Assembly: GCA_003990765.1 (NCBI GenBank)
Contig: RBNJ01000053.1
Coordinates: 1 to 46,625, forward strand
Direction: 5' to 3'
Length of the DNA stretch: 46,625 nucleotides
From: Jimgerdemannia flammicorona
Taxonomy: Eukaryota
Both the position numbers and the translations under genes were made by a program. This document shows, piece after piece, positions 1-34,275 of this stretch (the first letter of the stretch is position 1; each line of letters opens with the position of its first letter). The notes beneath the pieces were generated by a model. That model made no database searches, was not told where the DNA came from, and worked only from the letters and a program-made list of their open reading frames with translations.

Positions 1-45
<45 letters not shown>

Positions 46-7439: not shown

Positions 7440-7545
7440 TGTAACGGTGACCCCAGAATGATGATATCAGCACAGGAGACAGCCTTTCCTTACAAGCCAC
7501 CAGATCGGAGCACAAGAAGATTATATGGCATACAAGATGAGCAAT
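7440..7545 (+). repeat. Surviving start of the 3' LTR of element 1
   Basis: 99/106 identical to 250-355 by manual alignment. Preceded by a polypurine tract. Confidence 0.92.
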
Positions 7546-13221: not shown

Positions 13222-15238
13222 TTACATTCCATCATATAACAAGACTTTGAGGCTCGTGTTTACTTTCCACGCTTCGGCTAATGCGCTGGCTCCCTTCTCG
13301 CCAATGTTATTCTCTACAGAGGAATTCAAAAAAATACATATGCGTGGTGAGCAGCTAGAACATTATGCAGACGAATGCGAAACCGAATTGCACTTCATTC
13401 CTACAGACCTGATAGAAGCAGGTTTTGCAGGCTTGTGTTCATTTTCAGTGCTTTGGCCAGTGCGTTGGCTCCCTTCTCGCCAATGCCATTGTCTACGGAG
13501 TAATAAATAAAATGTATATGCATGGTTATCAGCTCGAACATCGTGTGGATGAATTCAAAAATACAATGTGCTTTACTCCCACATACAGAATAAATTCAGA
13601 TTTTGCAGGCTCGTGTTCATTTTCAGCGTTTCGGCTAGTGCATTGGCTCCCTTCTCGCCAATACCATTGTCTGCAGAGAAATGCATATAATGCATACACA
13701 TAGTTGTTAGTTAGAACACTAAATAAATGAATAAAAAAAATAATGTGCTTTGATCCTACAAGGTAGATTCAGGATTTGCAGGCTCGCGTTTATTTTCAGG
13801 GCTTCGGCTAATGTTCTGGCTCCATTCCCGCCAATATAATTTCCTATAGAGGAATACATAAATGCATATGAGTGGTTTTCAGCCAAAACGTTAAACAGAT
13901 TAATAAAATATAATGCACTTCGTTTCACCATACGTGATAGATCCAGGTTTTGCAGGCTCGTGTTTGTTTTCAGTACTTCGGCAAGTGCATTGGCTCCCTT
14001 CTCGCCAATACCATTGTCTACAGAGAAAAATTTACATATTTATGCATACTTATAAGCTAAATAATTAAACCGACGAAAACAAAAATATAATTCGCTTCAT
14101 TCCTACATACCTTCTAAATCCAAGGTTTGGAGGCTCCTGTTCATTTTCAGTGCTTCGGTTAGCAAGGTGGCTCCCTTCTCGCCAATAGCATTTTCTGCAG
14201 AGGAACGCATAATATATGTACGCGCGGTTGTCAGCTTAAACGCTAAATGGAGGGTTGCATAATATAATAATTATCATTTCTACATACTGCATAAACCAAT
14301 GTTTCGCAGACTTGTGTTCATTTTCAGTGTTTCGGCTAGTGAACTGGCTCCCTTCTCTCCAATGTAACTTCCTACAGAGTAACACATAAAATATATATGC
14401 TTGGTTGTCTGCTGGAATGATAAATAGATGAACGCAAAAAATAAGATATGTTTTATTCCTACCTGATAGATCCAGGGTTTGTAGACTCATATTGATTTTC
14501 AGTGCTTTGGCTAGTGTGTTGACTCCTTTCTCGCCAATTTCACTCCCTACAGAGTAGCACAAAAATGTATATGCTGGTTGTCAGCTGAGACACTAAACGT
14601 ATGAATGCAAAAATATAACGCCTTTCATTTCTACATACATGATATATCCAAGTATTGTAGACACGTATTCATTTTCAGTGCTTCGGCTAGTGCGCTGGCT
14701 CCCTTCTCGCCGATGTCATTCACTACAAAGTAACACATAAATTTATAGTATGGCTGTCCGTTAAAAACACATAAATATAAACCCTAAAATGTAATATACT
14801 TCATTCCTACATGTTAGATCCAGGTTTTGCAGGCTTGCATTCATTTTCAATGCTTCAGCTAGGGCGCTAGCTCCCCTCTCGCCAATGTAATTATCTGCAG
14901 AGTACACAAAATGTATATGGTTTGCTATCAGCCAAAACACTATACAGATAAATGCAAAAATACAATTTACTTCATTCCGACATACTTGTTAGATTCAGGT
15001 TTTGCAAGCTCATGTTCACTTTCAGTGCTTCGGCTAGTGCGCTAGCTCCCCTCTCGCCAATGTCATTCCCTACCAAAAAATATACATTTGGTTACCAGTG
15101 AGAATACTAAACAGATGAATACAGATAAAATGTGCTTCATTCTTAATTCCATACGTGATAGATCCAGGTTTTGCAGGCTCGTGTTCATTTTCAGTGCTTC
15201 GGCTAGTGCGCAGGCCTCATACTCATCAATACAATGTT
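13222..15238 (-). repeat. LRR exon-intron tandem array of copy A (12 units, ~170-185 bp period)
   Basis: 84-bp exons: 15238-15155, 15069-14986, 14894-14811, 14722-14639, 14546-14463, 14371-14288, 14194-14111, 14017-13934, 13843-13760, 13670-13587, 13492-13409, plus the terminal exon from 13313. Consensus xNxIGEKGASALAEALKMNTSLQNLDLx. Confidence 0.95.
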
Positions 15239-18187
15239 CTATAGAATATGCAAAATATATATAGTTGTCAGCTAGAATGTTAGGAAATGAATACAAAAAT
15301 AAAATGTGCTGAACTTCTATAAACCTTTTTTATAATAATCCATTCTTACTAAAATACATAAAAATATTAATATACAGTTAACAGTTAGGATCTCTCAAAA
15401 AAATAATACAGTTAATTTATATTTGTTATCAAGCTTTAAGGCTCCAATGTGAGTTGTGACCATTAAAAAATATTAATATATACCTGAAAGATTAAGTGTT
15501 CGAAGTTGAAAACATTTCTGAACAATATTTTTAATTCTACGGATAGAAAAGATCAGTTTTTTTTTTTTAGTATAGAGATTATAAAATAACCTATTTGTCA
15601 TTAAACAAAACATTGCCATACTGTATGTTCTTCATCTCATTTATTCTAAATAAGCATATCAATGTAATGTTAGTATTTAATTTGTAAAGTTTATCAAGCA
15701 ACAATATTTTGTTAACTTACTCAAGGATTTCAACAGTGGTTGCAGCATTAAATAGAGCTTCCACATCTTCAGAACGAACTTTGTTACAAGCTATAAAGCT
15801 ATAATTTGGCAACTCAGTAGTCATTCTAAGAAAGCAAAAAAAAAAAATTATAGACAAGCTTATTACCTAATTTTCCGCAAAGGAATATCAAATAGTACGC
15901 GCGTCGCCAAATTTCGAAATGTATGCAAAGATCTCTCTGACAAATCCTTCATTCTGAATATTATAACAAAACAGTCTTGAGTACAAAAACAACATAGACA
16001 TCAATTTGAATATTAAAAAACGGGAAATAATACAAACGTCAGCTCCCAAGTTTCGTTGTTAAACGTAATGCTGTCATTTATGGAACAGTTCTTGATGGCT
16101 GTATAAAGACTCCTAACAGCGTTTGTTGTCTCCCACTCTGATGCGTGATTCTTGCACACCCATCGCACTGTTACGGTACCGTTTTCCCCACGACGGAGCA
16201 CGCGCTGCAGATTCCCAGGCCAGTTTGTGTCATTCAAGCCCTTGAGACAAGCTATAAACCGAAATTCGAAAGGAAGCATGAGTACACGTAGAAATAAGCG
16301 CATTCACACTTGGACAGAAAATCAGTGTACCACTGCACCTTGAAGTTTTCGCAGATCAGGTCTTTCCATCAGTCCTGGTGCACTTTCTTGCGTCTTAACC
16401 AGCAGCGGAACCTCAGCCATATATTTCTTGGTCTGGTTATCCATGGCCCCGAGCTTGTCTCCGAATATCTTGAAAAACAATTCAGTCTGCGCGCAGAACT
16501 CAAGTTCGCGGTCCATAAATATCGACGAGTCAGTTGCATTGTATGCCGTTGAGGTGATTTGACCTTCAACCCGTAAGATGTCTGCTACCTCCTTCCAAAA
16601 TGCGGGGATACATTCCAATAGGCATCCTCCCAAACGTACAGCAAGCAATAGACATGGCATGATCTATTGAATGAGAAATGTTAGAAGGCGTGCAAAGAGA
16701 GTTCGGACACTAAAGCTCAAAGAGACGACATACCGTACGTATATATGTCCCATATTTAGCTACAAACTAAAAAAATAAAATAAAAATAAAATAAAAAAAT
16801 AAAAAAAATAAAAAAAATAAAAAAAATAAAAAAAAAAGACATGAAGTAATGATAGGTTAAGTAGAAAATAGGCACCCGTGTTGTAGTATATGGAGTATAT
16901 TCCATATTGAATATCAACATATCATACCTCCCGTGGTCGAGTGACATGGTAGCCATCATTGTACGCCAGATGGAACTGTTTCTTTGTGGTGCCGTTTTCG
17001 ATGGTTTCGTGCTCGCAAAGAAAGTATAGACGGAACGTTTTGGTGAAGAGAACGTCAATTGATGGCGACCACCAATGACCATCCTCGGGAAATATGAAGA
17101 AGAGTCGCGGGACTGTATCCTCATGGAGATCGAGCATAAGCTTAGGCAGACTGTCAACCTTGCCGCGGATTTCGTCGAGGCTGCTCAGTATATCTCTCGT
17201 GTCGTTTTTTTTGTCTTCTATGTTATTCTTTATGTCCTATGCAATTTGTATAAATTTGGGGAAAATAGCCACGGAATTTGAATAAGCATTGTATCAGGAC
17301 AATACGGCAACACAAAATATCGATTACTACTAACCAACGCTAGATTGTAAGGTGGTGCTGTGAATGCAAAGAATAATATTTAGTCAGCAAAAGGCTCGCG
17401 CGCTTTTGATGAATGTTTCGAAATCCCATCCCTTTGAATGACTACATAATAAAACTGTGTAATTCACCTACCTCGGAGTTGGTCCTTCAGAATGTCGAGA
17501 AGTCTGCACTCCCTTTCATGAAGTTGTATGCGTTCTTTACCAAGTCGATCTTTCTCCTTCTCATCCGTTGTCAGTGCCACCAGTTCAAATTTTTGCATCA
17601 GTTCATCGATTTCGGTCTCAATCCTCTTAATTCTAGCCTCGGCAGCACTTTCGTCGGTAGCTGTTACATAAAATTGTAAGCGCAACCTAAATTTAATTCA
17701 AGACGACAATTATTTGCATGGACAATAGTTGCCACACCAAAGAAAAATCACGCACCTTCCCAATATCCCTGCTGACCACCGCACCCTACGTTAAATACAA
17801 ACGAAATGTTCCAGTTTGGGTAAGCAAAGGTACCGGAGCTGCGGGTCACATTCACAACTATCGGCAGAGCTATTTATCCGATGACGGATCCTTGAATACC
17901 ATTGCTTAGGATAATCATTTGACAATACTAGAGTAATTACCTCGTAATCGAGAAATCTCACCCACTATTTTGGCCACCGGTCCACCTGGTAAGTTATATG
18001 GAGGTCCCAGTAGATCCTCTTTTGTAAGCTGAACGAGAGCGTTTCCGTCTACTTCTTGATCCAGCAAGATTGTCGCATGCTCTGGCTTCAATCGGAGCGC
18101 GGGATGCCGAAAGTGCTCAAAGAGTGTGTATTCGTCCCAAGTCTTGATTTCGTCAAGCGAAGGAGTTGGAAGTTCGGAGGAGGACAT
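13222..18187 (-). CDS. Copy A: SAM - coiled coil - conserved core - RI-like LRR protein; 25 exons, ~883 aa
   Basis: Manual GT-AG model, open throughout. Non-LRR exons: 18187-17941 (SAM: QEVDGNALVQLTKEDL..YNLPGGPVAKI), 17785-17756, 17660-17472, 17357-17335, 17236-16928, 16766-16734, 16663-16339, 16251-16038, 15953-15867, 15798-15721, 15645-15622, 15536-15484, 15348-15325. Then eleven 84-bp LRR exons and terminal exon 13313-13222. Exon phases and nearly all lengths are conserved in copy C. Confidence 0.88.
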
Positions 18188-19399
18188 GGTAACAGAAGTA
18201 GAGGTATATACTGGTTTTCTTTTGGTCGCTAAGGGAAGAGTTGTCTGCAGGAGTGAAAGTCGTTTTCGCAAGGTATTTAACTAACGTAATAAGGGTGACT
18301 GCTATCTCTTTTCAGCTTCCAAACGTCACAAAGAATACAAAGAATACAAAGAATACAAAGAATGCAACATAATACACTGGAATATTCTCTTGTATATAGT
18401 AAGCATGTTTGTCAAAATACGGACATGTGATACCTGCATAATTGACAGGACTTAATCGTTATTATATAATTATACAAGAGGGCATTCAAATCAAAACGGA
18501 CAAAATTTCTTTGAGAGATAAGATCGGTTTTGATTTGAACGCATGGTTGTCATTCATACATAGTTCTCCTTAGCTGCAAATATCGCTGTATTCTCCTAAT
18601 TATTGTCAGGAATTCACATCTAGATAAACAAAGTTGATTTGAATACTTGAACCTTAAAAAGGAATGTAAGTTCGAACCGAAATCCAGTTCGACATTTTCA
18701 TGGCGCAGTAATCAACACAGCATGTGTCCTCTCATGAGAATTTTGATGGGAGGGTATAGCCAAAGAAGGCTATAAAAAAGTGTGTGTCTGCTTCCCATGG
18801 CTGTGTCAGGTGTGCCGATTCCTCTTAAAAGTTTTTGTTTAAGTGAGCAGACCGCCCTGAGCGATTCTTCGCCTTTGGGGTCGTTTGCGAGGTGATAGTA
18901 GGGTTGCGGTGCGTGTAGACTACCCATCCTAGTCAGATCCAAAATGGGATAGTCTCGTTTCCGTTGAATCGAGAAAATGTTCGTGACCATCTGTATGGTT
19001 ATTAACCAGAGGACAGAACCTTGGATTGTTACCTATTGGGCAATCTCGTTCATAAATTTTGTCACGGCCCACGGGGCGTTTCGGTAAGTAGAATGGTAGG
19101 GGCCCGACAGTTTCCTGATCACGAAAAACCGCTACATGGTCAGATAGCAAAGTGTCAAATGTTCTGTGTCAGCCGACGAGTATCATACCTTTTCAGTTAC
19201 TAATGTGAAATGAACAAATCCTCATGTTGGAGCTTTTGACACCTTCAGGATTTTGATGGACCCGAGTCAATTATAGGGTTCATGCTATGTCCACAGTAAT
19301 AATCACACTCTAATTGATGAAACTGCAAGTCGTAACTTTGATCGGACAGGCGGCTTAAATTTTGAGCAGTAATGAACGTTTTGGATTGTACCTGTATAT

Positions 19400-20320
19400 G
19401 AATGTTTTAGGGATAGCTGATATACTGAAGCCAATATGCCTGGACGTGCTGATGTCATCGGTCTGCCAATTATGAAAGCATCGATGCCTTCATCCGCAAA
19501 TAAAACATCGAACGTAGACCGGATCTCTGCGGTGCGTGGACATGTTCATGTGATCGTATGGGGGAACGGTAACAAAGGCAGCGGAGGTCGCGCGCTTCGA
19601 AATTGTAGCAATTGCGTTCTCTGCAACCATGAGCTTGGCGATGATTTTGAATTGTACGAAACACGCGTTCGGGTTGGTCAGAAACGTTTGACACAGCATT
19701 GCGAGGTTGCTACGCAGGATGATATCACGTAAATCTGGATTCCTGGTACCATACATTGAGTACCTGCGCCATACATTTAAATAAATACATGTGTACACTA
19801 AGTACGCCATGTAATTATGTGACGTGGTTTTGCAATTTTCAACTTAAACTCTCGTCAGGCGATGGACCAACTGGTGAATGATTACGTCCATAAGGGTCTG
19901 ACGTCCGTTGTGTGGAATGCTGGGTCTATCCATCATGACTGAAGCATATCTGCGATACTCAAACGACTTGGCTTTTTTAAGAGCGGGACATAATCTATGG
20001 AAGATCTGACAACCGTATCGTTGGCATCGCAAGACGTAAGCGTCTCTATCAGGATTTGTCTGTTATTAGACACTGGCACAGCGGAATGTATAGAAACCAA
20101 GTAGTTGCGTGGAAGCGAAATCGGCAGATTTTGAATTGAAAGCCATATTTTATTTCCATAATGTCTTCATCGATGCGTGGGTATTAGAGTGAAAATAAAC
20201 AGATTGGGGTCATTATGGGTTAATCGAAAAAACTGATATATGCAAACATATTTTAAATTCTGCCAAAATGAATTGCCCATTCCACCTCGCTTCCGCTGAT
20301 GTTAAGGGCTACAGAGGACC
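19400..20320. repeat. Shared inter-gene segment of the tandem unit (homologous stretches at ~11400-11788 plus 12957-13030, ~29290-30250 and ~38375-38730)
   Basis: Recurrent anchors: catcgca(g/a)ga(c/t)gtaagc at ~11478, ~20024, ~38441; ccctgtcc(g/a)tga at ~11606, ~30018, ~38570; gcgaggttgctacgcaggat at ~19701 and ~29638. Confidence 0.85.
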
Positions 20321-20404
20321 ACATAAATGTATACGCGAGGATTTCGACTGGAAACTAAACATATGGATGCTAAAGCACAGTGTGCTCCATTTCTACATTC
20401 TCCA

Positions 20405-22543
20405 CTAAACCAAGACTTTGAGGCTCGCGTTTACTTTCTTCGCTTCGACTAGAGCGCTGGTTCCCTTCTCGCCAATGTTATTCTCTACAGACGAATACAG
20501 AAAATGCATACGCATTGTTATCAGCTAGAATGCTACGTAAATAAATGCACAAACAAAATATGCTTCATTCCTACAGACCTGATAAATCCAGGTTTTCCAG
20601 GTTGGTGTTCATTTTCAGCGCTTCAGCTAGTGCGATGGCTCCCTTCTCGCCGATACCATTTCCTACAGAGGACCCCACACGCGGTTGTCAGCTCGGAGGC
20701 TTAACAGATGAATGCAAAAATATAATACGCTTCGTTCCCACATACTGGCTAGCTGCACGTCTTGCAGGCTTGTGTTCATTTTCAGTGCTTCCGCTAGCGC
20801 GCTGGCTCCCTTCTCGCTAACGCCAATGCCTAGAGAGGAACAAGTAAAATTAATATGCTTCGTCATCGGATTGAACTCTAATGAATGCAAAATCATAATG
20901 CGCTACATTTCTACATACATTTTAAATTCAGGTTTTGCAGGCTTGAGTTCATTTTCAGTGCTTCGGCTAGCGCGCTGGTTCCCTTATCGCCAATGGAATT
21001 GTCTACAGAGAAACACATAAAATGTAATCGAATCGTTGTCAGCTAAAACGTCAAATAGATGAAAGCAAAAATGTAATGCACTTCATTCCAGCATACTCCT
21101 TAGATTCAATATTTGCAGGCTCGTGTTCAATTTCAGTGCTTCGGCTAGTGCGCTGCCTCCTTTCTCGCCAATCCCATTTGCTACAGGGAACACATAAATT
21201 TATACGTGTAGCTGTTAGCTAGAACACTGAACAGATGAATGCAAAAATACAATGCAATATACATTTTAGGTTTAGGCTTTGCAGGCTCGCGTTCATTTTC
21301 AGAGCTCCGGCTAGTGCGCAGGCTCCCTTCTCGCCAATAGAATTATCTACAGGGGAACACGTTAAATGTATACGGGTGGTTTGTAGCTAAAACGAATGTA
21401 TAATGCGCTTTATTCGTACACACCCCATAGATTCAGATTTTGCAGACTCCTGTTCATTTTTAGTGCTTCGGCTAGTGCACTGTCTCCCTTCTCACCAATG
21501 CCATTGTCCACAGAGGAACACATGCATGCTTGTCAGCTAGAGCACTAAACAGATGAATTCAAAAATGTAATGCTCTTCATTCGTACATACTTGTTAGATC
21601 CAGATTAATAAGTCTTGTATTCATTTTCAATCCTTGGGCTAGTACGCTGGCTCTCTTTTCGCCAATAACGTTATTTGCAAAGAACACATAAAATATACAC
21701 GCGCGGTTGTTGGTTAAACCACTAAGCAGATTAATGCAAAAATATAATGCGCTTCATTCCTACATACCCTATAGATTCAGGTTTTGCAGGCTCGTGTTCA
21801 TTTTCAGTGTTTCGGCGAGCGCGCTGGCTCCCTTCTCACCAATATCATTGTCTACAGAGTAACAGATACCTGCTTGTCAGCTAAAAAAAACTAAACAGGT
21901 GAATGCAAAAATATAATGCTCTTTATCTCCACACACTTGTTAGATCCAGGTTTTGAAGTCTTGTGTTCATTTTCAGTCCATGGGCTAGTACGCTGGTTCC
22001 CTTTTCGCCAAGACCATTTTCTGCAAAGGAACACGTAAAATTTATACGCGCGGTAGTCAGCTAGAGCACTAAACAACTTAATGCAAAAGTATAATTTGCT
22101 TCATTCCTACATACCACATAGATTCAGGTTTTGCAGGCTCTTGTTAATTTTCAGTGCTTCGGCTAGTGTGCTGGCTCCCTTCTCACCTATACCATTGTCT
22201 ACAGAGGAACACACAAAGTGTATACGCATGCTCGTCACCTAGAACAATAAACAGATGAATGCAAAAATATAATGCTCGTCGCTCCCGCATACATGTTAGA
22301 TCCAGGTTTTGCAGGCTTGTGTTCATTTTCAGTCCTTCGGCTAATACGCTAACTCTCTTTGCGCCAATATTATTTCCTACACAAAATTTATACGCTTGGC
22401 TATCAGCTAGAGTACTAAACATATAAATGCAAAAATATATTGTTCTTCATTTCTCATACTTGCTAGATTCAGGTATTGCAGGCTCGTGTTAATTCTCAGT
22501 CCTTCGGCTAGTGCGCTGGCTCCCTTCTCGTCAATATAACGTC
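20405..22543 (-). repeat. LRR exon-intron tandem array of copy B (13 units)
   Basis: 84-bp exons starting at 22543, 22376, 22198, 22020, 21851, 21674, 21507, 21346, 21180, 21002, 20829 and 20662. Terminal exon 20484-20405. Confidence 0.93.
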
Positions 22544-24984
22544 CTGCAGGAGAACATACAAACATGGTTGTCAGCTAGAACAATAAACAGATGATTGCAA
22601 TAATATAATGTGTTTAATTCTTACATACCTTTTTTATAATAACCCAATCTGACTATAGAAGTACAAGAAAAAAAGTAACTATTAAAAAGATAATACTGTT
22701 TTCATTGCTATAACTTCAGCTACAATGATGTAATTATTTTTTCTATTGATGAAATTTCCGGAGGAGAAATCTCAGATATGAGATGTGACTACTGTATAAA
22801 GCTATTATAGTTGTATATCTGAAAGATCAAGTGTTCGAAGTTGAAGACACTTCTGAATAATATTTTTAATCCTACAGACAGGTAAAGATTGACTTTGTTA
22901 GTATGAATATTTTTGGTTATTATTAATAATTATAGACCAAAATATTAAACATTAAATGAAAGATAATTATACTGTATATTTTTTATCTCATTTATTCTAG
23001 AGAAGTATGTATATGTGATGTTAGCATTTAATACATCAAGTTTTTCAAATAAAAAAATGTTTACATTAACTTACACAAGGATTTAAATGATGGTTGTAGC
23101 ATTAATAGGAGCTTCTACATCTTCCAAATGAACATTTTCGCAACCTACGAAGCTATAATTCCATCATTTTCAGCAAGAAAATTATAAGGCAAAGGTTTAC
23201 TTAATACCTGATTTTCCGCAAAGGAATACCAGGCAGCACGCGCGTCACGGAATTTCGAAATGAACTCAAAGATCCCTTTGACAAATCATTCATTCTGAAT
23301 ATTAAAATATAACAATATTTAGTATGAAAACAGCATAATTAGACATAATGATACAAGTAGAAACATTAAAATCAGAATATAATACGAACTTCAGCTCCCA
23401 AGTTTCGTCATTAAATGTAATACTGCCATCTATGGAACAGCACTTGATTGTTGTATGAAGACTCCGAACAGCGTTTGGTGTCTCCCACTCCGAGGCATGA
23501 TTATTGCACACCCATCGCACTGTTATACTACCTTTTTCCCCACGACGGAGCACGCGCTGCAGATTCCCAAGTCGGTTGACGTTATACAATAATCTCTCAA
23601 AGTAAGCTACAAACCGAAATTCGAAAAAAAAAAAAAAAAAAAGGATTAATATATATATAAATCAGCGCACGAATAATTGGATGTATCGCTGTACCTTGAA
23701 ATTCTCGTAGATCAGGTCTTTCCATCCGTCCCGGTGTTTCTCTTTGCGTCTGAAACAACGTCGGAGTATCAGTTGTATATTTCTTGCCCTGGTTATCAGT
23801 AGCCTCGAACTTATCTCCGAATGTCTGTTTGTTGTCCGTTGAAGCTACTTGACCACCAGCCCGTAGGACCTCTGCTTCCGCCTTCCCAATTTCAGGGACA
23901 CATTCCAATAAGCGTCCTCCCAAGCGTACAGCAAGTAATAGACAGGACATAATCTGTTGTATAATAAATATTAGATGGCGTGCAAAGAGAGTTCGGATAC
24001 TCAAGCTCAAACAGACGACATACCGTGCGTATGTATGTCCCATATTTAGCTATAAACTAAATATATTAAGATGTGTTTCATCAGAAAAGTAAGCACCCGT
24101 ATTGTAATATATGGAGTACATGTCATATTAAATTTCAACATAGCATACCTCGCGTGGTCGGGCGACAGGATAACCACCATGATACGCCAGATGGAACAGT
24201 TTCTTTGTGGTGCCGTTTTCGACGGTTTCGTGCTCGCAGAGAAAATATAAACGAAATTTTTTGGTGAAGAGGCTGTCAATTGACGGCGCCGACCAATTAC
24301 CATCCTTGGGAAAGATGAAAAAGAGTCGCGGGATTCTATCCTCATGACGATCGAGCATAGGCTTGGGCAGACTGTCAACCATGCTGTCAAGGTCGTTGAG
24401 TATCTCGATTTCGGCCTTGATTCTAGCCTCGGCATCACGTTCGCCGCCAGCTGTTATATATAATTGTAAGCGCCAATTAAATTTTAATTCAGCGTGGCGG
24501 ATTTGCAGGGACAATTGTTGTCACACCGAAGAAAATCCGCACCTTCCATAAATCCCTGCTGACCAACTCGTCCTATGTCAAACGCATGTAAAATATTCAA
24601 GTTTGGGTTAGCAAAGGTACCGGAGCTTTAAATCACATTCACAACTATCAGCAGAGCCATTTCCTCGATAATTAATCCTTGAATGCCCTTTGTAACCATT
24701 TCTTTGGATATGCATTTGACAATAGCTGCAGTAATTACCTCGTAATCGAGCAATCTCACCCGTGATTTTGGCCATAGGGCTACCTCGTAAGTTATACGAG
24801 GTTCCAACAAAACCTTTTCAGTCAGCTGTACCAGAGCGTTCCCGTCTACTCCCTGATCCAGCAAGATTGCAGCATGTTCGGGCTTCAATCTGAGAGCGGG
24901 ATGCTGAAAGTGTTCAAAGACTCGGGTTTTGTCCCAAGTATTGATTTCGTCAAGCGAAGGAGTTGGAAGTTCGGAGGAGGACAT
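20405..24984 (-). pseudogene. Copy B of the SAM-core-LRR gene (13 LRR exons), inactivated
   Basis: 1-bp deletion in the SAM exon (~24799). In-frame TAA at 23085-23083 (GAA in A and C). Donor GT>AT at 22818. LRR acceptors AG>AA (21675) and AG>GG (21509). In-frame fusion of exon 3 to exon 5 (~24405). Confidence 0.88.
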
Positions 24985-25746: not shown

Positions 25747-27275
25747 TGTGATGCTGAGATGACTCCTACTTCCTATGTTGGGTGGCCGGTTCCTCCGACC
25801 TGATTTGGACAATTGCTGCTTCCCATGGCCGGCGTACTCCTTACCCCGGATTCGTGCCACTTGCGGCTCCTGTTAGCAGGCGGAGCTACCTTGGCACGTC
25901 TACCGATCGTCTCGACCAGGGTTTCGTCGTCGCGGACGTCAATCAGAATGAAGGGTCCAAACCGGTGCAGATATAGGTAGGTATGGGGAATGACGCATCG
26001 TCGTCTGGGTGAAAATGAGCCCCATAGAGTGGGTAGACTAGGTGTCTTGCCTAAACGTTGTCCTGGCCGCCGTTAGAGGTTTTTGGGGAGCGTTCGTTGT
26101 TCGGGAGAGGTTGGCATCAGTTATTTCGAGGTCTGCAGGATGGTTGCGGCGGTTTGACTTCCATCTGATCTTTTTCTCAATGTCCATTGGTCCATTGGTC
26201 TCTTCTAGATCGTCCGACACGGTTAGCTCCGTATTGATATCGGTATTGACAAGGGTTCCGGGCTCCACGTCGGATGCTTGCACACTGACTTCTTTGGGTG
26301 GGTATGGTTCGAAGTTTCCAAGACTAACGAGTGTTCTTGGCTGGGGACTGGGGACAGTTGAATGATTGGGCGTGGCGCTGATCGTTTCTTCGTCGTTATC
26401 TTTTTCATTTTCCGAGGTGTCGGCCGAAGTGTCGTTAAGGACAGTGCAGCTGGATCTTGTCTAGGCCTCAGCAACCAGTTCGGTATTGACTGATGGCTCT
26501 GCTTCTAACGCCTGTGTACCGATCTCTCCGCCCCCTCCGCCCGGGGTATTGTCCGTCCTCGTCAAGGCCTCCGTCTATCATCTTTGGCACCTCTACGATG
26601 ACCTCTGCTTCCTTGCGCCGTCGGCTTTCATGCGATGGGGTTGAAACGGACGGGCATCATTATCGGGTAAGCTTCGGCTTCTGCGCCTTCTTCTTCCATT
26701 AGTTCGGGAACGCTTAAGTGATGTGCGGTAGGTCAGAGTCGTAGGGTAGGCCTGACTTCGCGCCGATAACCAGGCTAGGTTGGGTTTGGATTACGCCGGC
26801 TCTCGTGGTTGACGTTCAGCCTAGCAATATGCCTTTCTTCTTCGCATTCATAGTACTGGCGAACATTGGTCGTTCGTCGCTGTTGCATCTGCTCGTTCAT
26901 CACTGTTGCATCTGCTCGCTGTCGCTGTTGCATCTGCTCGTTCGTCGCTGTTGCATCTACTCGTTCATTTCCGCGCTAACTGCCTTTCATACTATCTCCG
27001 TTATCTCCCCATTGCTAGGCTCGGGCTACGTTTGCCGAGGTAGCCATCACGATCGGTGTAGTCGCACTGATCGGAACCTGACCTTGTCCTTGCATTAACA
27101 GACCTGCCGAAGGGTTCGTCGAAAAATTTGGTTGCAGCATTAGGTAAGGATTGGTGACCGCGAGCGGGTTGCTGGCATAGGTCTGGCTGTCGAAAGGCTC
27201 GAGCGAAGTGTGGAGACACTATGGGGACGAACATGGTTGACCGGAGGATTCCTATTTGGCCGACATTTTCCTCCC
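25747..27275 (-). mobile_element. Probable 3' LTR (~1519 bp, 27265-25747) with adjacent polypurine tract; rest of the element missing
   Basis: On the minus strand GGGAGGAAAA (27275-27266) is followed by TGTCGGCC...CATCACA. The tract resembles the GGAGGAAGA/TG junction of element 1. Similarity to the paralogous host sequence at ~39074-39125 ends at this boundary. Internal imperfect tandem repeat ctgttgcatctgctcg at ~26875-26965. Confidence 0.65.
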
Positions 27276-27865
27276 AGGCCCCTTGCGCTGCGGAAAGGAC
27301 CCTTCGTTATTCACGCTGTGTAATCACTTGCATTATTTTCCAGTCCCAAAGTTCAGAGTACATACAACATGGTGTTGTTAGCTAAAATATAATCCAATAA
27401 AAAGCACAATTCTGAAGCTCGGAGATATGTGTGAAACTGTACTTTTATATAAAGAAGAATAGTGCTTGAGGAAGTTGAATGTGGCTGTCATAAGGAACTG
27501 CCTAACTGGTTCTCTGCAGGCTCAAGCGTCGGCTTGGCCGATATAGGATTACAGAATTTTTTTTCACATCAGCTGGGCCTCGAAGGCATAATAACGTAGA
27601 GCAATCGTGGTCTGTGCTTGCAAAGATAATAGATAGTGGCGGCCGCCATATTTCCAATTTTCAATAAACGGATGGTCGTAGTTACATGACGCCGTCAATC
27701 CAGTTCGACAGACATAAAGTGAGATAAACTGGGCACCTCCATGGTTCTCCTGGTCGTGCCCGACGGCATCTTACGTCTGAAGATCAGGTTCGCTTTTATC
27801 ACCAGAGTCCGCTGCGCCCGATGCGAACACAAAATCCTTGATATCTGTGGAATTTTCTTACCAAA

Positions 27866-28129
27866 GATCTGTGTTCGAATAACATCGGGAAGGTTGGCAA
27901 AACCCAACGCAAATGCCCTCGAAACTTAGAAAACCCTCACCTCATTGAATCCCAGGAAAAAAATTATCGGGCAGAAAAAACCATCGCAAAGACCATGGAA
28001 GCCAACGAAAAGAATCTATCTTTGAATGGCATCGGGAAGGAGGGCGCGAAGGCCGTCGCGGGGGTTCCCGAACCCAACAAAATTCTCACTTCATTGGATT
28101 GGTCGGGGAATAGCATCGAGGAGGAGAGG
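27866..28129 (+). pseudogene. Intronless RI-like LRR relic (about 3 degenerate repeats)
   Basis: Reads DLCSNNIGKVG / ANALET*KTLTSLN / NLSLNGIGKEGAKAVAGVPEPNKILTSLDWSGNSIEEE (last block 28013-28126), with frameshifts and a stop. Confidence 0.7.
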
Positions 28130-28567
28130 TTTGGTCCTATGCCTTTCTTTCTTTTTGGGGCTCCTCCCTGATGTAATTGAACATTAGATCTAACGAGCGA
28201 GTATTTTTTTCGGTTATTAGGGCCCTTATGACATCTATTGCGTCCTCGTCTCTGATTTTTTCCTATGAGGTGAGGGTTCCGTTGGTTTCGAAAGCCTTTG
28301 TGCCATTCTCACCGATAGTGTTTCAGTGAAATGAGGATATTTGGGCCTTACACCGTCATTTAGCCATCCCATTTTTAGTTCCCGTCACCAATAAATAAAT
28401 GAACGTTCTTGCAGAGCCTTCCTAGCCACCAACAATGTGATCTTGCACAATTTTCCTCACTCAAAAAACCCTCGGAGATGTTTCTACCTAGCCACGGTAA
28501 GGCGAATGATAATTGTAGTAGGTTCAATAATCCCTATTACACTCAAAGCCTTTTTTTCCTTTTTTTA

Positions 28568-28598
<31 letters not shown>

Positions 28599-30317
28599 GA
28601 ATAAGGCATAGTTTATGATTGACATCAATCATAAATAAGACACTTTCCCCAACCATTATTCCGCTTTTCGACGAGGGTGCAGAGTTACAGTCCGCAAAAT
28701 GTATGTGCTCTTGAATATCAAACCCACAGTGTTCTTCGAAATTCCAAAATCCTATGAATATACAGTCTCGACAAGAAACTGCAACGCTTCAAGCATACGC
28801 TTCCCCACTGCTCTTCTCCTCTGAACATATATAGTCACATCAGCTATGTCATTCCTGCGCTCCGCGTGCTATTAAGTGTTTAAAATAAAATTCTGGAATA
28901 CATCCTCATTGGGTTAGTTCTAAACTCGTTACCATTCTTGCCGCTTTGCCCAGGAGGCAAATCAATCCGTCCTCCATACCTCCATAGTCAAACAGGTAAT
29001 GGTTTGATTGTTCATTGGCTAGTGGCGTCACACTCAAGACTGTATATAGTAAACTTATTCTGAGCCGACATTTACTTCTTTGCGCGCACGAATGTATTGA
29101 TATGTTTGTTGTGGCCACATAATAACCAACGACACTATACTTTGTGCCAGTTTATTCTACACACTTCAGGCGCGTGCACTATTTGATATGCATCCTGACT
29201 TCGTGCAAGACCCGTAAACGGTCTGCCTGTACTTTAAAAAGGCATCGTCGCCTTCACCATCCACTGATGAAAATTCCTGTAGGAGCTCTGCGATGCGTGT
29301 ATATGTTAATGTGATCGTAAGATGGGCTGCTCTGGAAACGGATCAGAGGGAGCGGAGTTTGCAAAGGACGCCGATAGCGCTTGCCTCCCGCTTTTTATCC
29401 CTCAAACATGTCGTAACGAGGCCGTATTCAGCTTACACGAAGATAGAAATCCAGCGTTCGGAAGGAGGGGTCGACACGCCGTTAGACGCCGTTTTCGAGC
29501 TGTGGGTCGGCGGAGAAGCTCCACCAGAACTTCCGTATCCAGTTCAAGGCATATTAATCTGAATCCAACAGATGATGATGACTTTGAATTTTACGAGATA
29601 AGCGTTCAGGTTGTTCAGAATCTTACGATAAGGCGATGCGAGGTTGCTACGCAGGATTATATCATGTAAGTCAGGATTCTTTTCAAGTCCTTAACAATTG
29701 ACGAGCGGAATTAGTTCAAGGAGCATCGCAACACAGAATTGCTGATGATTGAACACCACCCATGGCCACAGTCAACGCACGTCAGGCGATGGGCCGAATG
29801 GTGACCTATTATGTCCATGATGCCCTGGATATGTCCAACACACAATGCTCTGATGAGCTAGATATAGTCTATGGAGGGACGGGTAGCCCGAATCTTTGGT
29901 ATTGTAAGACAGAAGCGTCTCTATCAGGATCTCTCTGTTGTTTGAGACATCCTGGAATGTATAGAAACTGAATAGTTCCGTGGAAACGTAATCGGCTGGC
30001 GAGAAATGGGATTTGCCCCTGTCCGTGATGAATAAGAGAATGTAATCGCTGAGATGGTTTAGAAGCCATATTATATTTCTATAATATTTCATTGACACGA
30101 GGGTTTCGGACTGAGGATAAACAGAAGGCAGTACCCATGGTTTTATTTAGGATAATAGGCTAAACTAATTTATATATGTTAAAATCTGCCAAAATGAGTG
30201 CCCAATCCATCTCGTTTCCGCTGATGTTAATAGTTACAGAGCACTACATAAATGTATACGCGCGATTGTCGACTAGAAACTAAACATAGGGATGCTAAAT
30301 CACAGTGTGCTCCATTT

Positions 30318-31298
30318 CTACATTCTGTCATAAACCAAGACTTTGAGACTCGTGTTTACTTTCCGCGATTCGGCTAATGCGCTAGCTCCCTTTTCGCCAA
30401 TATAATTTCCTACAGGACGACCACATAAAATGTATAATATTGGCGATCAGCTAGAACACTAACAAGGTGAATGCAAATATATAATGCTCTTTGTTTGTAC
30501 ATACCTCCTAGATTCAGGTTTTGCAGGCTCGTGTTCATTATCAGTGCTTCGGCTAGTGCGCAGGCTCCCTCCTCGCCAATACAATTGTCTACAGAGAACG
30601 CATAAACAATATACACATGGTTGTCAGCTATAACACTAAAAAAATGAGTGTAAAATATAACATACTTCATTTCTACATACATTTTAGATCCAGGTTTTGC
30701 AGGCTCATGTTCATTTTCAGTGCTTCTGCTAATGCACTGGCTCCCTTATCGCCAATACCATTGTCTACAGATGAATGCACAAAATGTATAAGCTTGACCA
30801 TCAGCTAGAACACTAAAAAGATGAATGCAAAAATATAATACTCATCACTCTAACATACATGCTAGATCTAGATTTTGCAGGCTCGTGTTCATTTTCAGTG
30901 CTTCAGCTAATGCACTGGCTCCCTTATCACCAATATCATTGCCTATAGATGAATACACAAAATGTATAAGCTTGACCATCAACTAGAACATTAAAAAGAT
31001 GAATGCAAAAATATAATACTCATCACTCTGACATACTTGTTAGATCTAGATTTTGCAGGCTCGTGTTCATTTTCAGTACTTCGGCTAATGCACTGGCTCC
31101 CTTATCGCCAATATCATTGTCTACAGATGAATGCACAAAATTTATAAGCTTGACCACCAGCTAGAACACTAAAAAGATGAATGCAAAAATATAATACTCA
31201 TCACTCTGACATACATGTTAGATCTAGATTTTGCAGGCTCGTATTTATTTTCAGTGCTTCGGCGAGTACGCTGGCACCCTTCTCGTCAATGCAATGCC
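30318..31298 (-). repeat. LRR exon-intron tandem array of copy C (6 units)
   Basis: The first four exon starts are exactly 178 bp apart with near-identical introns. Confidence 0.95.
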
Positions 31299-34275
31299 CT
31301 ACAGAGGAATATGAAATATATGTGAGTAGTTGTCAGCTATAGCACTAGGAGATGAATGCAAAAATACAATGTGTGCTTATTTCATATATACCTTTTTTAT
31401 AATGGAGTTGTCTGACTGTAGAAATATATAAAAATATTAACATAAAGTCAATAGTTAGAAACTATCAAAAAGATAATACAATTTGATTTTATATATATTC
31501 TTAAGCTTGAATATTCAAGCTCATTTTATAACTTTAGCTTAAGTTCTGATATTCTTTACACTATTTTTTTTATAAGCTTGTATAAAATTTATAAAGAATT
31601 TCTCAAAAAGTATTACAGTGTTGAATATACCTGAAAGATCAAGTGTTCGAAGTTGAAGACACTTCTTAATAATGTTTTTAATCCTACAGATAAATAAATG
31701 TTAATGTTGTTAGTATAGATATTTCAAATAACTCATCTATAATTAGACCAAAGTATTAAATAAAATATTATTATACGGTATATTCCTCAGCTCATTTATT
31801 CTAGAGATATATCAATAATATGTTAGTATTTAATATATATATCAGTTTTTCAACAACAGTATTTATATTAACTTACACAACGATTTCAACAGTTGTCACA
31901 GCATTAATAAGAGCTTCCACATCCTCTGAATGAACCTTTTCACAACCTACAAAGCTATAATTTGGTTGCTCAGTAATCATTCCAGGTAAGCAAAAATAAA
32001 ATAAAATAACAGAAAACGTATTACCTGATTTTCCGTAAAGGAATGCCAGAAAGCTCGCGCGTCACCGAATTTCGAAATGTGCGCAAAGATCCCTTTGACA
32101 AGTCCTCCATTCTGAATATTAAAATAAAACAGCTTTGAGTATAAAAACAGTATAGACATAAAAGATACAAGTTAAATATTAAATCAGAAAATAATACGAA
32201 CCTCAGTTCCCAAGTTTCGTCGTTAAACGTAATGCTGTCACCCATGGAACTGCTCTTGATGGCGGTATGAAGCCTTCGAACAGCATTAGTTGTATCCCAT
32301 TCGGATGAATGATTTTTGCATACCCATCGCACTGTTATGCTGCCTTTTTCCCCATGACGGAGCACGCGCTGCAGATTCCCAAGTCGGTTTGCATTATCCA
32401 TGCCCTCAAGATAAGCTATTAATCAAATTTAAAAAGAAGCATGAGTATATTGAAAGCAGTGCACATATATTTTTTCAGAAAATTAATGTATCGCTGTACC
32501 TTGAAGTTCTCGCAGATCAGGTCTTTCCATCAGTCCCGGCGATCTTCCTTGCATCTGAACCGAGGGCGGCGCATCAGTCGTACATTTCTTGACCTGGTTG
32601 TCAGTAGCCTCGAGTTTGTCTCCGAATGCCTTAAAAAATTTCTCAGTCTGTGCGCAGAACTCAAGTTCGTGATCCGTAAATATGGACGATTCTGTTGCCT
32701 CGTATGCCATTGAAGCGACTTGACCGCCAGACCGTAGGACCTCTGCTGCCGCCTTCCCAATTGCAGGGACACATTCCAATAGGCGTCCTCCTAAGCGTAC
32801 AGCCAGCAATAGACAGGGCATGATCTATTGCATTAAAAATGTTAGATAGCGTACAAAGAGATTTCGGACGCTCAAGCTCAATCAGACGACATACCGTACG
32901 TATGTATGGCCCATATTTGGCTACAAACTAGAATACATTTTGTAGAGATATGTCATGAGGAATAACAAGCACCTGTATTTTTACAATTGTATTATATATC
33001 ATATTGAATATCAACATACCTCCCGTGGTCGGGCGACACGGTAACCATCATGATACGCCAGATGGAATTGTTTCTTTGCGATGCCGTTTTCGATGGTTTC
33101 GTGCTCGCAGAGAAAATATAGACGGAATGTTTTGGTGAAGAGGCTGTCAATTGACGATTCCCACCAATGACCATCCTCGGGAAAGATGAAGAAGAGGCGC
33201 GGGACTGTATCCTCATGGAGATCAAGCATGAGCTTAGGCAGACTGTCGACCTTGCCGTGAAGCTCGTCGAGGCTGCTGAGGATATCTCTCGTGTCGCCCT
33301 TTATGTCTTCTGTATCATGTTTTATGTCCTGTACAATCTATATTAATGTAGGGGATATAATCGTGAGGTTGCATAAACATCGTATCAGGACAATCCGCTA
33401 AACAAAATATCGATTACTACTAACCGATGCCAGATCGGAAGATGGTGCTGGGACAGAAAACATATATTATAATTAGCTCTTTTTCGATGAGTTTCCGAAA
33501 TCACATCCCTTTGAATAGCTGCACAATAAACCGCATAATCCACCTACCTCGTAGTTGCTCCTTCAGAATATCGAGAAGTTTACACTTTGTTTCATGAAGC
33601 TCTGTTCGCTCTTTACCAAGTCGGTCTTTCTCCTTCTCATCCGTTGTCGATTCGTTCTTCAGGGCCACCAGTTCAATTTTTTGCGTCAGTTTATCGATTT
33701 CGGCCTCAATCTTCTTGATTCTGACATCGGCGACGCTTTTTCTGGTAGCTATTATGTATAATTATGAGCGAAAAATAGTTTAATTCAAGACAATATATAT
33801 ATGTATGTTGTGTTGGGACAATATATCACACCAAAGAAAAAGCACGTACCCTCCGTAGATGCTTGCTGAGTTCCTAATTCAGATACAAATGAAATATTTA
33901 AGCTTCAGTTAGCAAAGGTACCAAAGCGTTATTGCTGTTGGCAGAGCCATTTACTCGATAGTGAATCCTTTAATACCCCTCAAAACCATTGCTTTGGAAA
34001 TGCATTTGACTGTAGATACGGTAATTACCTCGTAATCGAGCAATCTCACCCATAATTTTGGTCACAGGACCACCTCGCAAATTATACGGAGGTCCCAACA
34101 GAGCGTTTTCGGTCAGCTGAAGGAGAGCGTTCCCATCCACCTCCTGATCCAGCAAGATTGCGGCATGCTCGGGCCTCAATCTGAGAGCAGGATGCTGAAA
34201 GTGTTCAAATACGCGGTTTTCGTCCCAAGTATTTATTTCTTCAAGCGAAGGAGTTGGAAGTTCGGAGGAGGACAT
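30318..34275 (-). CDS. Copy C: SAM - coiled coil - conserved core - RI-like LRR protein; 19 exons, ~717 aa
   Basis: Manual GT-AG model, open throughout. Non-LRR exons: 34275-34029, 33873-33850, 33748-33548, 33447-33425, 33328-33020, 32927-32895, 32824-32500, 32415-32202, 32111-32025, 31954-31877, 31800-31777, 31683-31631, 31415-31392. LRR exons: 31298-31215, 31120-31037, 30942-30859, 30764-30681, 30588-30505, terminal 30409-30318. Confidence 0.88.

What the first reader, a model, noticed from the sequence alone, without database searches (positions are those of the whole stretch)
13222..34275. Tandem family of SAM-core-LRR genes built from one-repeat-per-exon, frame-symmetric cassettes: a candidate diversifying receptor system
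Seen: three paralogues share an N-terminal exon scaffold but carry 12, 13 and 6 LRR exons. Every internal LRR exon is exactly 84 bp, phase 1 at both ends, and sits in introns that are themselves homologous. Any cassette can be gained, lost, swapped or skipped without a frameshift. Established: 28-aa RI-like LRRs are the sensor type of animal NLRs such as NOD1/NOD2/NLRC3, which also use 84-nt LRR exons. One-repeat-per-exon shuffling was proposed as a receptor-diversification mechanism for Ectocarpus ROCO and NB-ARC-TPR genes. Characterised fungal NLRs mostly use WD40/ANK/TPR sensors, not LRRs. Inference: this is an NTPase-less, SAM-tipped LRR receptor family diversifying by exon-level recombination, possibly for non-self recognition. 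I do not know of a described system with this architecture.
Basis: partly seen in the sequence, partly recalled or inferred. Interest (0 to 1): 0.92.

Follow-up and report, generated by a model that had tools for sequence, protein, structure and literature searches.

The report
Fungal LRR gene cluster, one repeat per exon
Two apparently intact genes and one decayed copy of an uncharacterised fungal protein family sit in tandem, each building its leucine-rich-repeat arm from 84-base exons that can be added or lost without breaking the reading frame, a gene layout described for animal and brown-algal immune receptors that my literature searches did not find for fungi.

Summary
Three minus-strand paralogues (A 13222-18187, B 20401-24984, C 30318-34275) carry 12, 13 and 6 RI-type LRR units. 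All 28 internal units are 84 nt, phase 1-1, and their introns are homologous. Contigs from two public runs carry intron-less joins at nine predicted introns.

Corrections:
- B is a pseudogene, with a frameshift, in-frame stops, and broken splice sites including two LRR acceptors.
- C has one AG-to-GG acceptor.
- Four micro-exons per gene were missed.

The architecture is not unique. The central core has 557 representative relatives. Of 22 looked-up relatives that carry an organism name, 21 are Mortierellaceae; there are also Endogone hits. Core plus RI-type LRR proteins occur in at least eight named Mortierellaceae species.

The core has no Pfam family, no P-loop and no fold match, so "NTPase-less" stands. 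The SAM call is only sub-threshold.

LRR number changes by tandem duplication of exon-plus-intron units within a gene (C units 89-93% alike, introns 95-97%). I found no exchange between paralogues. Selection is purifying overall (omega 0.2-0.5); repeat positions 3 and 28 evolve at about the neutral rate.

An immune role is inferred, not shown. I rate it a new variant of a known kind, interest 0.55.

The parts
13222..18187 (-). Copy A: apparently intact gene, 25 exons, 892 codons, all introns AG/GT
   Evidence: Model built. Joins at introns 16664-16733 and 17786-17940 are seen in contigs of runs X1 and X2.
17941..18187 (-). Exon 1 of A: SAM-like N-terminal domain (82 codons)
   Evidence: Pfam SAM_1 E 0.011, below the cut-off. 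PDB matches are mostly SAM-domain proteins, best E 0.0031 with a profile.
17756..17785 (-). 30-nt micro-exon 1b, phase 1-1
   Evidence: The acceptor at 17785 is used in contigs of X1 and X2. An AG/GT-bounded open counterpart exists in C (33850-33873, 24 nt) and B (24543-24572). The donor was not seen in use: the X2 contig runs on through 17661-17755.
17335..17660 (-). Coiled-coil exon 17472-17660 and 23-nt exon 17335-17357
   Evidence: X2 record 10 carries 24 unplaced letters where the 23-nt exon belongs.
16038..17236 (-). Core domain of unknown fold on four exons: 16928-17236, 16734-16766, 16339-16663, 16038-16251
   Evidence: Profile of the first core exon: 557 relatives at E up to 0.001. 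No Pfam family. dN/dS between A and C is 0.29.
   Evidence: The matching part of the relative P0114 folds as LRR (VIA-align Z 8.8 to 3dze, also NLRP LRRs). Both C micro-exons appear as letters between joins.
13409..15238 (-). Eleven 84-nt phase 1-1 LRR exons of A, starting at 15238, 15069, 14894, 14722, 14546, 14371, 14194, 14017, 13843, 13670 and 13492
13222..13313 (-). Terminal 12th LRR exon of A (92 nt with stop). The former donor reads GA, so the frame runs into the old intron.
   Evidence: The same GA is present in B and C.
13091..13174 (-). Inactivated 13th LRR unit downstream of A's stop: AG acceptor kept, internal stop, no GT donor
   Evidence: 54/84 to the consensus. Fainter counterparts lie behind B and C.
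20401..24984 (-). Copy B: pseudogene with 13 LRR units (20401-22543)
   Evidence: Frameshift in the SAM exon. Deletions and a stop in the scaffold. Stop in unit 21768-21851, acceptors AA at 21591-21674 and GG at 21424-21507. AT donor after 22814-22878.
30318..34275 (-). Copy C: gene of 19 exons, 726 codons (717 if the downstream acceptor is used), six LRR units (31215-31298, 31037-31120, 30859-30942, 30681-30764, 30505-30588, terminal 30318-30409)
   Evidence: Joins at 32112-32201, 32416-32499, 32825-32894 and 32928-33019, and across both micro-exons, are seen in X2 (one also in X1).
31877..31981 (-). Exon of C whose acceptor reads GG. An alternative in-frame AG acceptor would give exon 31877-31954.
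   Evidence: Which acceptor is used was not visible.

Best explanation
This is a head-to-tail cluster of one gene family from a Mucoromycota fungus, with two apparently functional genes (A, C) and one pseudogene (B). The nearest named relatives are from Endogone and Mortierellaceae. Each protein has four parts: a small SAM-like domain, a coiled coil, a conserved core of about 280 residues with unknown fold and no NTPase motif, and a horseshoe of RI/NLR-type 28-residue leucine-rich repeats.

Shown:
- The LRR arm is encoded one repeat per 84-nt, phase 1-1 exon, separated by homologous introns of about 90 nt.
- Products are spliced.
- A and C have been under purifying selection since they duplicated.
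- Repeat number has changed by tandem duplication of exon-plus-intron blocks inside single genes: three near-identical blocks in C, and two-unit blocks in B.
- One cassette was lost before the genes duplicated, through a donor mutation.
- Decay of cassettes is seen in B.

Inferred:
- The proteins are cytosolic binders or sensors.
- The concave LRR face contacts a protein ligand. Repeat positions 28, 1 and 3 flank the exon junction, are by far the most variable, and would sit on that face.
- The SAM-like domain, coiled coil and core would assemble or signal.
- The overall logic (variable N-terminal module, conserved centre, repeat sensor, tandem birth-and-death) resembles NLR immune receptors, with the core in place of the NOD. 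Diversification acts on evolutionary time through unequal recombination, not through a dedicated shuffling mechanism.
For: - Gene models with all AG/GT introns and open frames of 892 and 726 codons.
- Intron-less joins with GT..AG ends at nine predicted junctions in contigs of runs X1 and X2.
- A versus C non-LRR exons: dN 0.128, dS 0.445, omega 0.29 over 1206 nt.
- Unit identities: C2/C3/C4 are 89-93% alike and their introns 95-97%. B3/5/7 are 86-88% and B2/4/6 are 77-85%. First, penultimate and terminal units pair across genes.
- The best between-gene unit identity (87%) does not exceed that of the scaffold exons (83.3% mean, range 80-91%).
- Entropy per repeat position is 3.2, 2.7 and 3.1 bits at positions 1, 3 and 28, against at most 1.7 bits elsewhere. 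The chance that the top three all fall in the six positions I take as exposed is 0.006. The exposed set is recalled LRR knowledge, not a call.
- Family breadth: 557 relatives at E up to 0.001. Of 30 looked up, 22 carry an organism name: 21 Mortierellaceae and 1 rotifer record. Endogone hits are 67% identical.
- P0114 from Gamsiella aligns to A over 664 residues at 33% identity and has Pfam LRR_6 at E 3e-41.
- The family profile matches ribonuclease inhibitor, NLRPs, NLRC4 and RanGAP only in its LRR part.
- N-termini vary among relatives, for example Sel1 repeats in P0110.
- 19 of 66 metagenome loci with a long core match hold two or three co-oriented copies.
- No Walker A motif.
Against: - No ligand, partner, localisation or phenotype is known for any member.
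- Selection on the LRRs is purifying overall (omega 0.22-0.50 in recent unit groups). The two most variable full codons give omega about 1.0, which is what relaxed constraint alone would give.
- The SAM assignment is below Pfam's cut-off.
- The run type of X1 and X2 is only guessed to be RNA.
- The only contig across the exon 1 region keeps 17661-17755. Read that way, the frame stops 12 codons after the SAM exon, so the SAM-to-core fusion protein is not yet shown.
- C needs a non-AG or shifted acceptor.
- Only 8 of 158 stored family proteins carry strict RI-type repeats, and 0 of 73 metagenome loci do, so the LRR arm is a sub-family trait.
- The whole genome is not held, so family size in this organism is unknown.
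Confidence: 0.55

Rival explanations
1. One reading: an actively diversifying receptor repertoire. Cassettes would be exchanged between paralogues, or skipped by alternative splicing, to create many binding specificities for non-self recognition, as proposed for brown-algal LRR-ROCO genes.
For: - Phase 1-1 exons of equal length allow any skip or swap.
- Introns are homologous.
- There are inactivated cassettes: three in B and one behind A.
- The hypervariable positions sit at the exon junction.
- Contigs in X1 and X2 join LRR exons that are not neighbours in the window, for example 30764 to 31040.
- The cluster lies 9 kb from a CHAT plus NB-ARC-like gene.
- Brown-algal precedent: passages of PMC3341825 and the abstract of PMC11378527.
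Against: - No between-gene unit pair is more alike than the scaffold.
- The end units keep their order across genes.
- No reverse-strand cassettes lie in the arrays: 0 plus-strand matches of at least 50/84, and a single 42/84 match outside the genes.
- Omega is below 1.
- The odd joins carry foreign letters and 95-99% likeness, so they fit other paralogues or another strain as well as exon skipping. Contigs cannot tell these apart.
Confidence: 0.15
2. An ordinary, non-immune LRR scaffold or regulator family, comparable to RanGAP, LRRC34, dynein-regulatory-complex or tropomodulin-type LRR proteins. The one-repeat-per-exon layout would be only the historical trace of how the repeats arose.
For: - Purifying selection acts on both scaffold and LRRs.
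- The family profile matches non-immune RI-type LRR proteins (LRRC34, DRC5, RanGAP1, SKP2, tropomodulin, CARMIL) as well as NLRs.
- The exon-repeat correspondence also occurs in non-receptor RI-type genes (Hoss 2019, PMC6642158, passages).
Against: - The family is lineage-restricted, highly multi-copy and tandemly arrayed, with pseudogenes.
- N-termini and repeat numbers are variable.
- No orthologue exists outside Mucoromycota among the named hits, apart from one rotifer record.
Confidence: 0.25
3. A decaying remnant: all three copies are non-functional leftovers of a dying family, and the apparent open frames of A and C are chance survivals.
For: - B is clearly broken.
- C has a GG acceptor.
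- The observed A transcript form stops after the SAM exon if the 95-nt stretch is kept.
- A retrotransposon lies next door.
Against: - Frames of 892 and 726 codons stay open across 25 and 19 exons with canonical sites.
- Omega is 0.29 at dS 0.445 between A and C.
- Spliced forms of both genes occur in two runs.
Confidence: 0.05

Closest known systems
Animal NOD/NLRC-type NLR genes (NOD1, NOD2, NLRC3 and relatives) and zebrafish NLR-B30.2 genes
   Same: RI-type 28-residue LRRs are encoded one repeat per exon. The border always falls at the same place at or near the beta-strand, so exons can be dropped without breaking frame or fold (Hoss 2019, PMC6642158, abstract and passages; Howe 2016, PMC4852459, passages). 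The family's LRR profile matches NLRP, NLRC4 and NAIP LRRs.
   Different: There is no NACHT or other NTPase. The central domain is unrelated and of unknown fold. The organism is a fungus. Whether the intron phase and exact position match the animal genes was not tested: no animal genomic DNA was to hand, and the paper's supplementary figure is closed.
[quoted passage not shown]
   Same: Each repeat sits on its own frame-symmetric exon of fixed length. There are tandem gene duplicates, pseudogenes, inactivated exons, and local duplications inside the repeat domain (Zambounis 2012, PMC3341825, passages; Teng 2024, PMC11378527, abstract).
   Different: Exons are 84 nt and RI-type rather than 72 nt and plant-type. 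There is no ROC-COR GTPase. No reverse-strand cassettes lie in the introns. End units keep their order between paralogues. No diversifying selection was detected.
Uncharacterised 'RNI-like' or hypothetical proteins of Mortierellaceae (for example Gamsiella multidivaricata XP_051412588.1 = P0114, Mortierella alpina KAF9565977.1 = P0134, Linnemannia exigua KAG0271686.1 = P0110)
   Same: True homologues: coiled coil, the same core domain and RI-type LRRs. P0114 aligns over 664 residues at 33% identity, E 2e-76, with LRR_6 at E 3e-41 to 9e-87.
   Different: No SAM-like tip: they carry other N-termini, such as Sel1 repeats in P0110 or a beta-rich domain in many. They have a Cys-x-Cys and His pattern in the core that the window's copies lack in part. 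Their exon structure could not be examined. In 66 metagenome loci the core is matched as one long uninterrupted stretch of at least 150 residues, whereas here it is split over four exons.
Characterised fungal NLRs (NACHT or NB-ARC with WD40, ANK, TPR or HEAT repeats)
   Same: A tripartite logic of variable N-terminal module, conserved centre and C-terminal repeats. They are tandem, fast-turnover families. A CHAT plus NB-ARC-like gene is a neighbour here.
   Different: Those have an NTPase and are reported without LRRs (PMC5658179, figure legend; PMC10197012 and PMC12258605, passages). This family has LRRs and no NTPase.
Ribonuclease inhibitor
   Same: The same LRR class: the family profile matches RI at E 4e-13 to 4e-8.
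   Different: RI is repeats only. As I recall, its exons hold two repeats, like the NLRP genes (171 nt; for NLRP). There is no added domain.

Membership tests
RI/NLR-type leucine-rich repeats (Pfam LRR_6 class) | Repeat of 28-29 residues with the LxxLxLxxN.. core followed by a helix-forming segment | tested here: met
   31 units of 28 residues. L, N and L are invariant at repeat positions 12, 16, 19 and 22. 47-50% identity to the LRRs of P0114, which score LRR_6 at E 3e-41. The family profile matches RI and NLRPs at E down to 1e-14. Single 27-residue exons alone reach Pfam in only 1 of 6 cases, because the exon border splits the model.
SAM domain (PF00536) | Score at or above Pfam's gathering cut-off | tested here: not met
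   16.6 bits against a cut-off of 23, E 0.011.
SAM domain (PF00536) | Sequence likeness to solved SAM domains over most of the roughly 65-residue domain | tested here: inconclusive
   Single sequence: 16 PDB sequences at E up to 1, best 0.014, mostly SAM-domain proteins. Profile of the three copies: 13 sequences, at least 11 of them SAM-domain proteins by their entry names, best E 0.0031, covering query residues 19-81. No structure of this exon was predicted.
NLR / STAND receptors | Central P-loop NTPase (NACHT or NB-ARC) | tested here: not met
   No Walker A motif in A. No NTPase family in the Pfam scan of the core exons or of 54 relatives. None of the 60 PDB matches shown for the family profile falls in the core part.
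NLR / STAND receptors | C-terminal superstructure-forming repeats and a variable N-terminal module | tested here: met
   LRR arm. N-termini differ among relatives: SAM-like here, Sel1 in P0110, others unassigned.
Exon-shuffled repeat receptors of the Ectocarpus type | One repeat per exon, equal length, frame-symmetric | tested here: met
   28 of 28 internal units are 84 nt and phase 1-1.
Exon-shuffled repeat receptors of the Ectocarpus type | Inactivated or reverse-strand cassettes within the repeat-domain introns, and scrambled exon order between recent duplicates | tested here: not met
   Inactivated units exist (three in B, one behind A), but they lie in register, not inside introns. None lies on the opposite strand within the arrays. 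First, penultimate and last units keep their order between genes.
Exon-shuffled repeat receptors of the Ectocarpus type | Diversifying selection on repeat residues | tested here: inconclusive
   Omega is 0.22-0.50 for unit groups, 1.01 for positions 3 and 28, and 0.31 for the rest. These are crude pairwise counts on paralogous repeats, with no site model and no orthologues.
Unnamed Mucoromycota core-domain family | Homology of the roughly 280-residue core | tested here: met
   Profile of the first core exon: 557 proteins at E up to 0.001, 48 at up to 1e-10. Full A protein against stored relatives: matches spanning A residues about 160-450.

The most novel reading that the evidence does not exclude
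A NOD-less fungal counterpart of NLR immune receptors. The conserved core, with no known fold and no NTPase motif, would be a new assembly or signalling hub shared by hundreds of Mucoromycota genes. It would be tipped by interchangeable adaptors (SAM-like here) and armed, in one sub-family, with RI-type LRR cassettes. The one-repeat-per-exon layout would let unequal recombination, and perhaps exon skipping, tune recognition of endobacteria, mycoviruses or foreign hyphae.
Probability: 0.15. Interest if true: 0.85.

Novelty: new variant of a known kind. Interest (0 to 1): 0.55.

Why it matters
The fungal immunity papers I read describe NLR-like receptors that carry WD40, ankyrin, TPR or HEAT repeats and no LRRs (passages). 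Here, LRRs of the animal NLR class are attached to a widespread but unnamed fungal domain instead of an NTPase. They are laid out one repeat per exon, as in animal NOD/NLRC genes and brown-algal ROCO genes.

If the family senses non-self, Mucoromycota, many of which host endobacteria, would have an immune-receptor class built on a different central engine. Even if it does not, two results stand:
- The locus is a clean natural example of how frame-symmetric repeat exons gain, lose and inactivate cassettes.
- The core domain, with 557 representative relatives and no family or fold assignment in the libraries searched here, is a clear target for structural and functional work.

Two literature searches listed no paper that, by its title or abstract start, describes this family.

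Tried and rejected
- Whole genome: none is held for this window, so no genome-wide census was possible.
- Earlier findings of the scan: nothing by place, sequence or words.
- Word-indexed protein search with the third core exon: 165 candidates, none at E up to 0.01.
- ESM Atlas with the first core exon and with the core of P0084: no usable hit, best score 0.79.
- PADLOC: 0 families for 6 queries.
- NCBIfam: only two chance-level rows, E 0.04-0.06.
- Fold of the core:
  - The model of P0114's core (pLDDT 78.8) and of P0090 (pLDDT 80.8) gave no Foldseek match at E up to 0.001.
  - The small beta-sheet part was barely tested, so I do not claim a new fold.
- Homodimer of the P0090 coiled coil plus core: complex prediction gave no answer, after the queue had been full.
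- Run search: no RNA holder is listed. Both holders are typed only by a guess.
- Depth figures and uncovered stretches were not used.
- Non-neighbour LRR joins were considered as exon skipping. I set them aside because contigs at 95-99% likeness with foreign letters fit other paralogues equally well.
- Metagenome scan, to learn whether relatives also use one LRR per exon: 73 loci were fetched and none carries RI-type repeats, so the question stays open.
- tblastn of A against 27500-28700 for a stray LRR copy: not significant (E 0.26).
- Supplementary files of PMC3341825 and PMC6642158 (exon tables and per-gene exon maps) are closed. They bear on the exact comparison of exon phase and border.

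Full report
**What is there**

The window is eukaryotic, with 34-50% G+C in 2-kb bins. Between 13.2 and 34.3 kb it holds three co-oriented minus-strand copies of one gene.

A scan for the 84-nt unit found 32 matches, all on the minus strand. Twelve belong to copy A, with a relic just behind it; 13 belong to B; 6 belong to C. Tandem Repeats Finder independently reports periods of 175-178 and 346-351 over the same three stretches.

- All 28 internal units are 84 nt and are read from their third base, so every flanking intron is phase 1.
- 28 of 28 internal units have GT donors and 29 of 31 units have AG acceptors.
- The introns between units are 77-95 nt.
- They are alike: 378 pairs average 0.69 identity against 0.55 for shuffled partners.

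**Gene models**

Copy A (13222-18187) can be read as 25 exons and 892 codons, with AG/GT at every intron. Copy C (30318-34275) reads as 19 exons and 726 codons. The two proteins are 73% identical over about 717 residues.

- a 30-nt exon (24 nt in C) after the first exon;
- the 23-nt exon;
- two 24-nt exons inside the irregular repeats that precede the array.

The last unit is 92 nt. In all three copies the donor reads GA and the frame runs eight bases into the former intron. The next cassette survives as a dead relic at 13091-13174, with fainter traces behind B and C. That cassette was therefore lost before the genes duplicated.

**Copy B is a pseudogene**

- It has a 1-nt deletion in the first exon.
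- It lacks most of the coiled-coil exon, the 23-nt exon and the start of the first core exon, and 22 codons of the third core exon.
- It carries a stop in the 105-nt cap exon and an AT in place of a donor.
- In its array there is a stop in unit 21768-21851 and dead acceptors at 21591-21674 (AA) and 21424-21507 (GG).

Copy C has one blemish, a GG acceptor at 31981. An AG 27 nt downstream would keep the frame and drop nine codons.

**Transcripts**

The run search listed two holders, and their library type is only guessed to be RNA. Their contigs, laid on 13200-33199, carry joined forms that skip predicted introns with GT..AG ends:
- In A: 16664-16733 and 17786-17940, both seen in X1 and X2.
- In C: 32112-32201 (X1 and X2), and 32416-32499, 32825-32894 and 32928-33019 (X2).
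- Two further joins whose in-between letters are variants of the two 24-nt micro-exons.
- A contig with 24 unplaced letters where A's 23-nt exon belongs.

The simplest reading is spliced RNA.

One caveat matters. The contig that uses the acceptor at 17785 runs on through 17661-17755. Read that way, the frame stops 12 codons after the SAM-like exon. I take 17756-17785 as a micro-exon followed by a retained 95-nt intron, for two reasons:
- AG/GT-bounded, open counterparts with lengths divisible by three exist in B and C.
- The second strain's 21-nt deletion falls in the putative intron.

The donor itself was not seen in use.

**What the protein is**

- The repeats are RI/NLR-type.
  - They are 28 residues long with invariant framework leucines and asparagine.
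  - They are 47-50% identical to the repeats of a Gamsiella protein that scores Pfam LRR_6 at E 3e-41.
  - A profile of the family matches ribonuclease inhibitor, NLRPs, NLRC4, NAIP, RanGAP and others, only in its repeat part.
- The first exon looks like a SAM domain, but only below threshold.
- The core between the coiled coil and the repeats has no Pfam family and no Walker A motif.
- Two AlphaFold models of relatives (pLDDT 78.8 and 80.8) gave no convincing structural match.

**The family**

A profile of the first core exon finds 557 representative proteins at E up to 0.001. Of 30 looked up, 22 carry an organism name: 21 are Mortierellaceae and one is a rotifer record. The closest named hits, at 67% identity, are two Endogone fragments.

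All are hypothetical proteins. Two literature searches listed no paper that, by its title or abstract start, describes them.

Only a subset carries RI-type repeats:
- 8 of 158 stored proteins by a strict pattern;
- 9 of 54 by Pfam LRR_6;
- 0 of 73 metagenome loci.

In the metagenome loci the core is matched as one long uninterrupted stretch of at least 150 residues. 19 of 66 loci hold two or three co-oriented copies. Tandem arrays are thus typical of the family, and the split core is a feature of this lineage.

**How the arrays evolve**

- A and C scaffold exons differ by dN 0.128 and dS 0.445 (omega 0.29), and are 83.3% identical in nucleotides.
- Units at the ends of the arrays pair across genes: A1 with B1, A11 with B12, and the terminal units at 77-85%.
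- Interior units group by gene.
  - C2, C3 and C4 are 89-93% alike, and the introns after C1, C2 and C3 are 95-97% alike.
  - B shows a two-unit period (B3/5/7 at 86-88%, B2/4/6 at 77-85%), matching the 346-nt TRF period.
- These blocks are younger than the gene duplication. No between-gene pair (at most 87%) is.

Repeat number therefore changes by unequal recombination within a gene, and I see no sign of recent exchange between paralogues.

Variation is concentrated at repeat positions 28, 1 and 3 (3.1, 3.2 and 2.7 bits against at most 1.7 bits elsewhere). These flank the exon junction. By recalled LRR structure they lie at the end of the beta-strand on the concave face.

Selection is purifying overall (omega 0.22-0.50). 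Positions 3 and 28 give omega about 1.0 and the remaining positions 0.31. This does not separate diversifying selection from relaxed constraint.

**Comparison with known systems**

- One 28-residue RI-type repeat per exon, with a fixed border and the consequence that exons can be skipped, is described for human NOD and NLRC genes (Hoss 2019, abstract and passages) and for zebrafish NLRs (passages).
- One LRR per 72-nt exon, with shuffling, inactivated exons and pseudogenes, is described for Ectocarpus ROCO genes (passages; abstract).
- Fungal NLRs are reported without LRRs.

This locus shares the exon logic of the first two and the tripartite, tandem, birth-and-death look of the third. It lacks their NTPase or GTPase, and it lacks the reverse-strand and scrambled cassettes of the algal genes.

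**Verdict**

The feature is real and the observation accurate, with one copy dead. It is unproven on function and overstated on uniqueness and on active shuffling. I rate it a new variant of a known kind, interest 0.55.

Noticed in passing
window 1-11300 (+): A long retrotransposon-like element with reverse transcriptase, integrase, dUTPase and a chromodomain (Pfam). It reads like a Ty3/gypsy chromovirus, a label I recall rather than tested. It ends about 2 kb from copy A.
   Followed up: partly
window 43197-45602 (+) and 46334-46624 (+): An 801-codon open frame with a CHAT domain (E 1e-18) and a P-loop that is NB-ARC-like below cut-off. Its relatives of 1270-1307 residues add ankyrin repeats, so it is a fungal NLR-like gene. 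A second NB-ARC-like P-loop frame starts at the window's end.
   Followed up: partly
window 27842-28168 (+): An open frame on the opposite strand, between B and C, with a weak RI-type LRR match (LRR_6 E 0.0028, below cut-off). It is also the only plus-strand 42/84 match to the unit consensus. It may be a degenerate, intron-less LRR relic.
   Followed up: partly
window 25809-27305: Contigs of run X1 cover this stretch between B and C, with one record bridging 25973 to 26206. No Pfam family was found for the 140-codon frame at 26038-26460. A 23-nt tandem repeat lies at 26870-26966.
   Followed up: no
P0070 (relative of the core domain): One of the 22 named relatives is filed under a bdelloid rotifer, Rotaria sp. 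Silwood2. This could be contamination or a transferred gene; I did not examine it.
   Followed up: no
P0090 residues 1-75 and the N-termini of many Mortierellaceae relatives: A confidently modelled beta-rich N-terminal domain (pLDDT 85-97) recurs by eye in many relatives in place of the SAM-like tip. It has no Pfam family.
   Followed up: no
alignments A2 and A3 (core domain): Nearly invariant His-Glu, Cys-Glu-Cys-Gly-x-His and His-x-x-x-His-x-Gly-Tyr residues in the Mortierellaceae cores suggest a metal site or catalytic centre. The window's copies keep only part of this pattern.
   Followed up: no
window 16769-16837 and 37836-37946: An A-rich 9-nt microsatellite lies inside an intron of copy A, and a 19-nt tandem repeat of 5.8 copies lies further downstream.
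   Followed up: no
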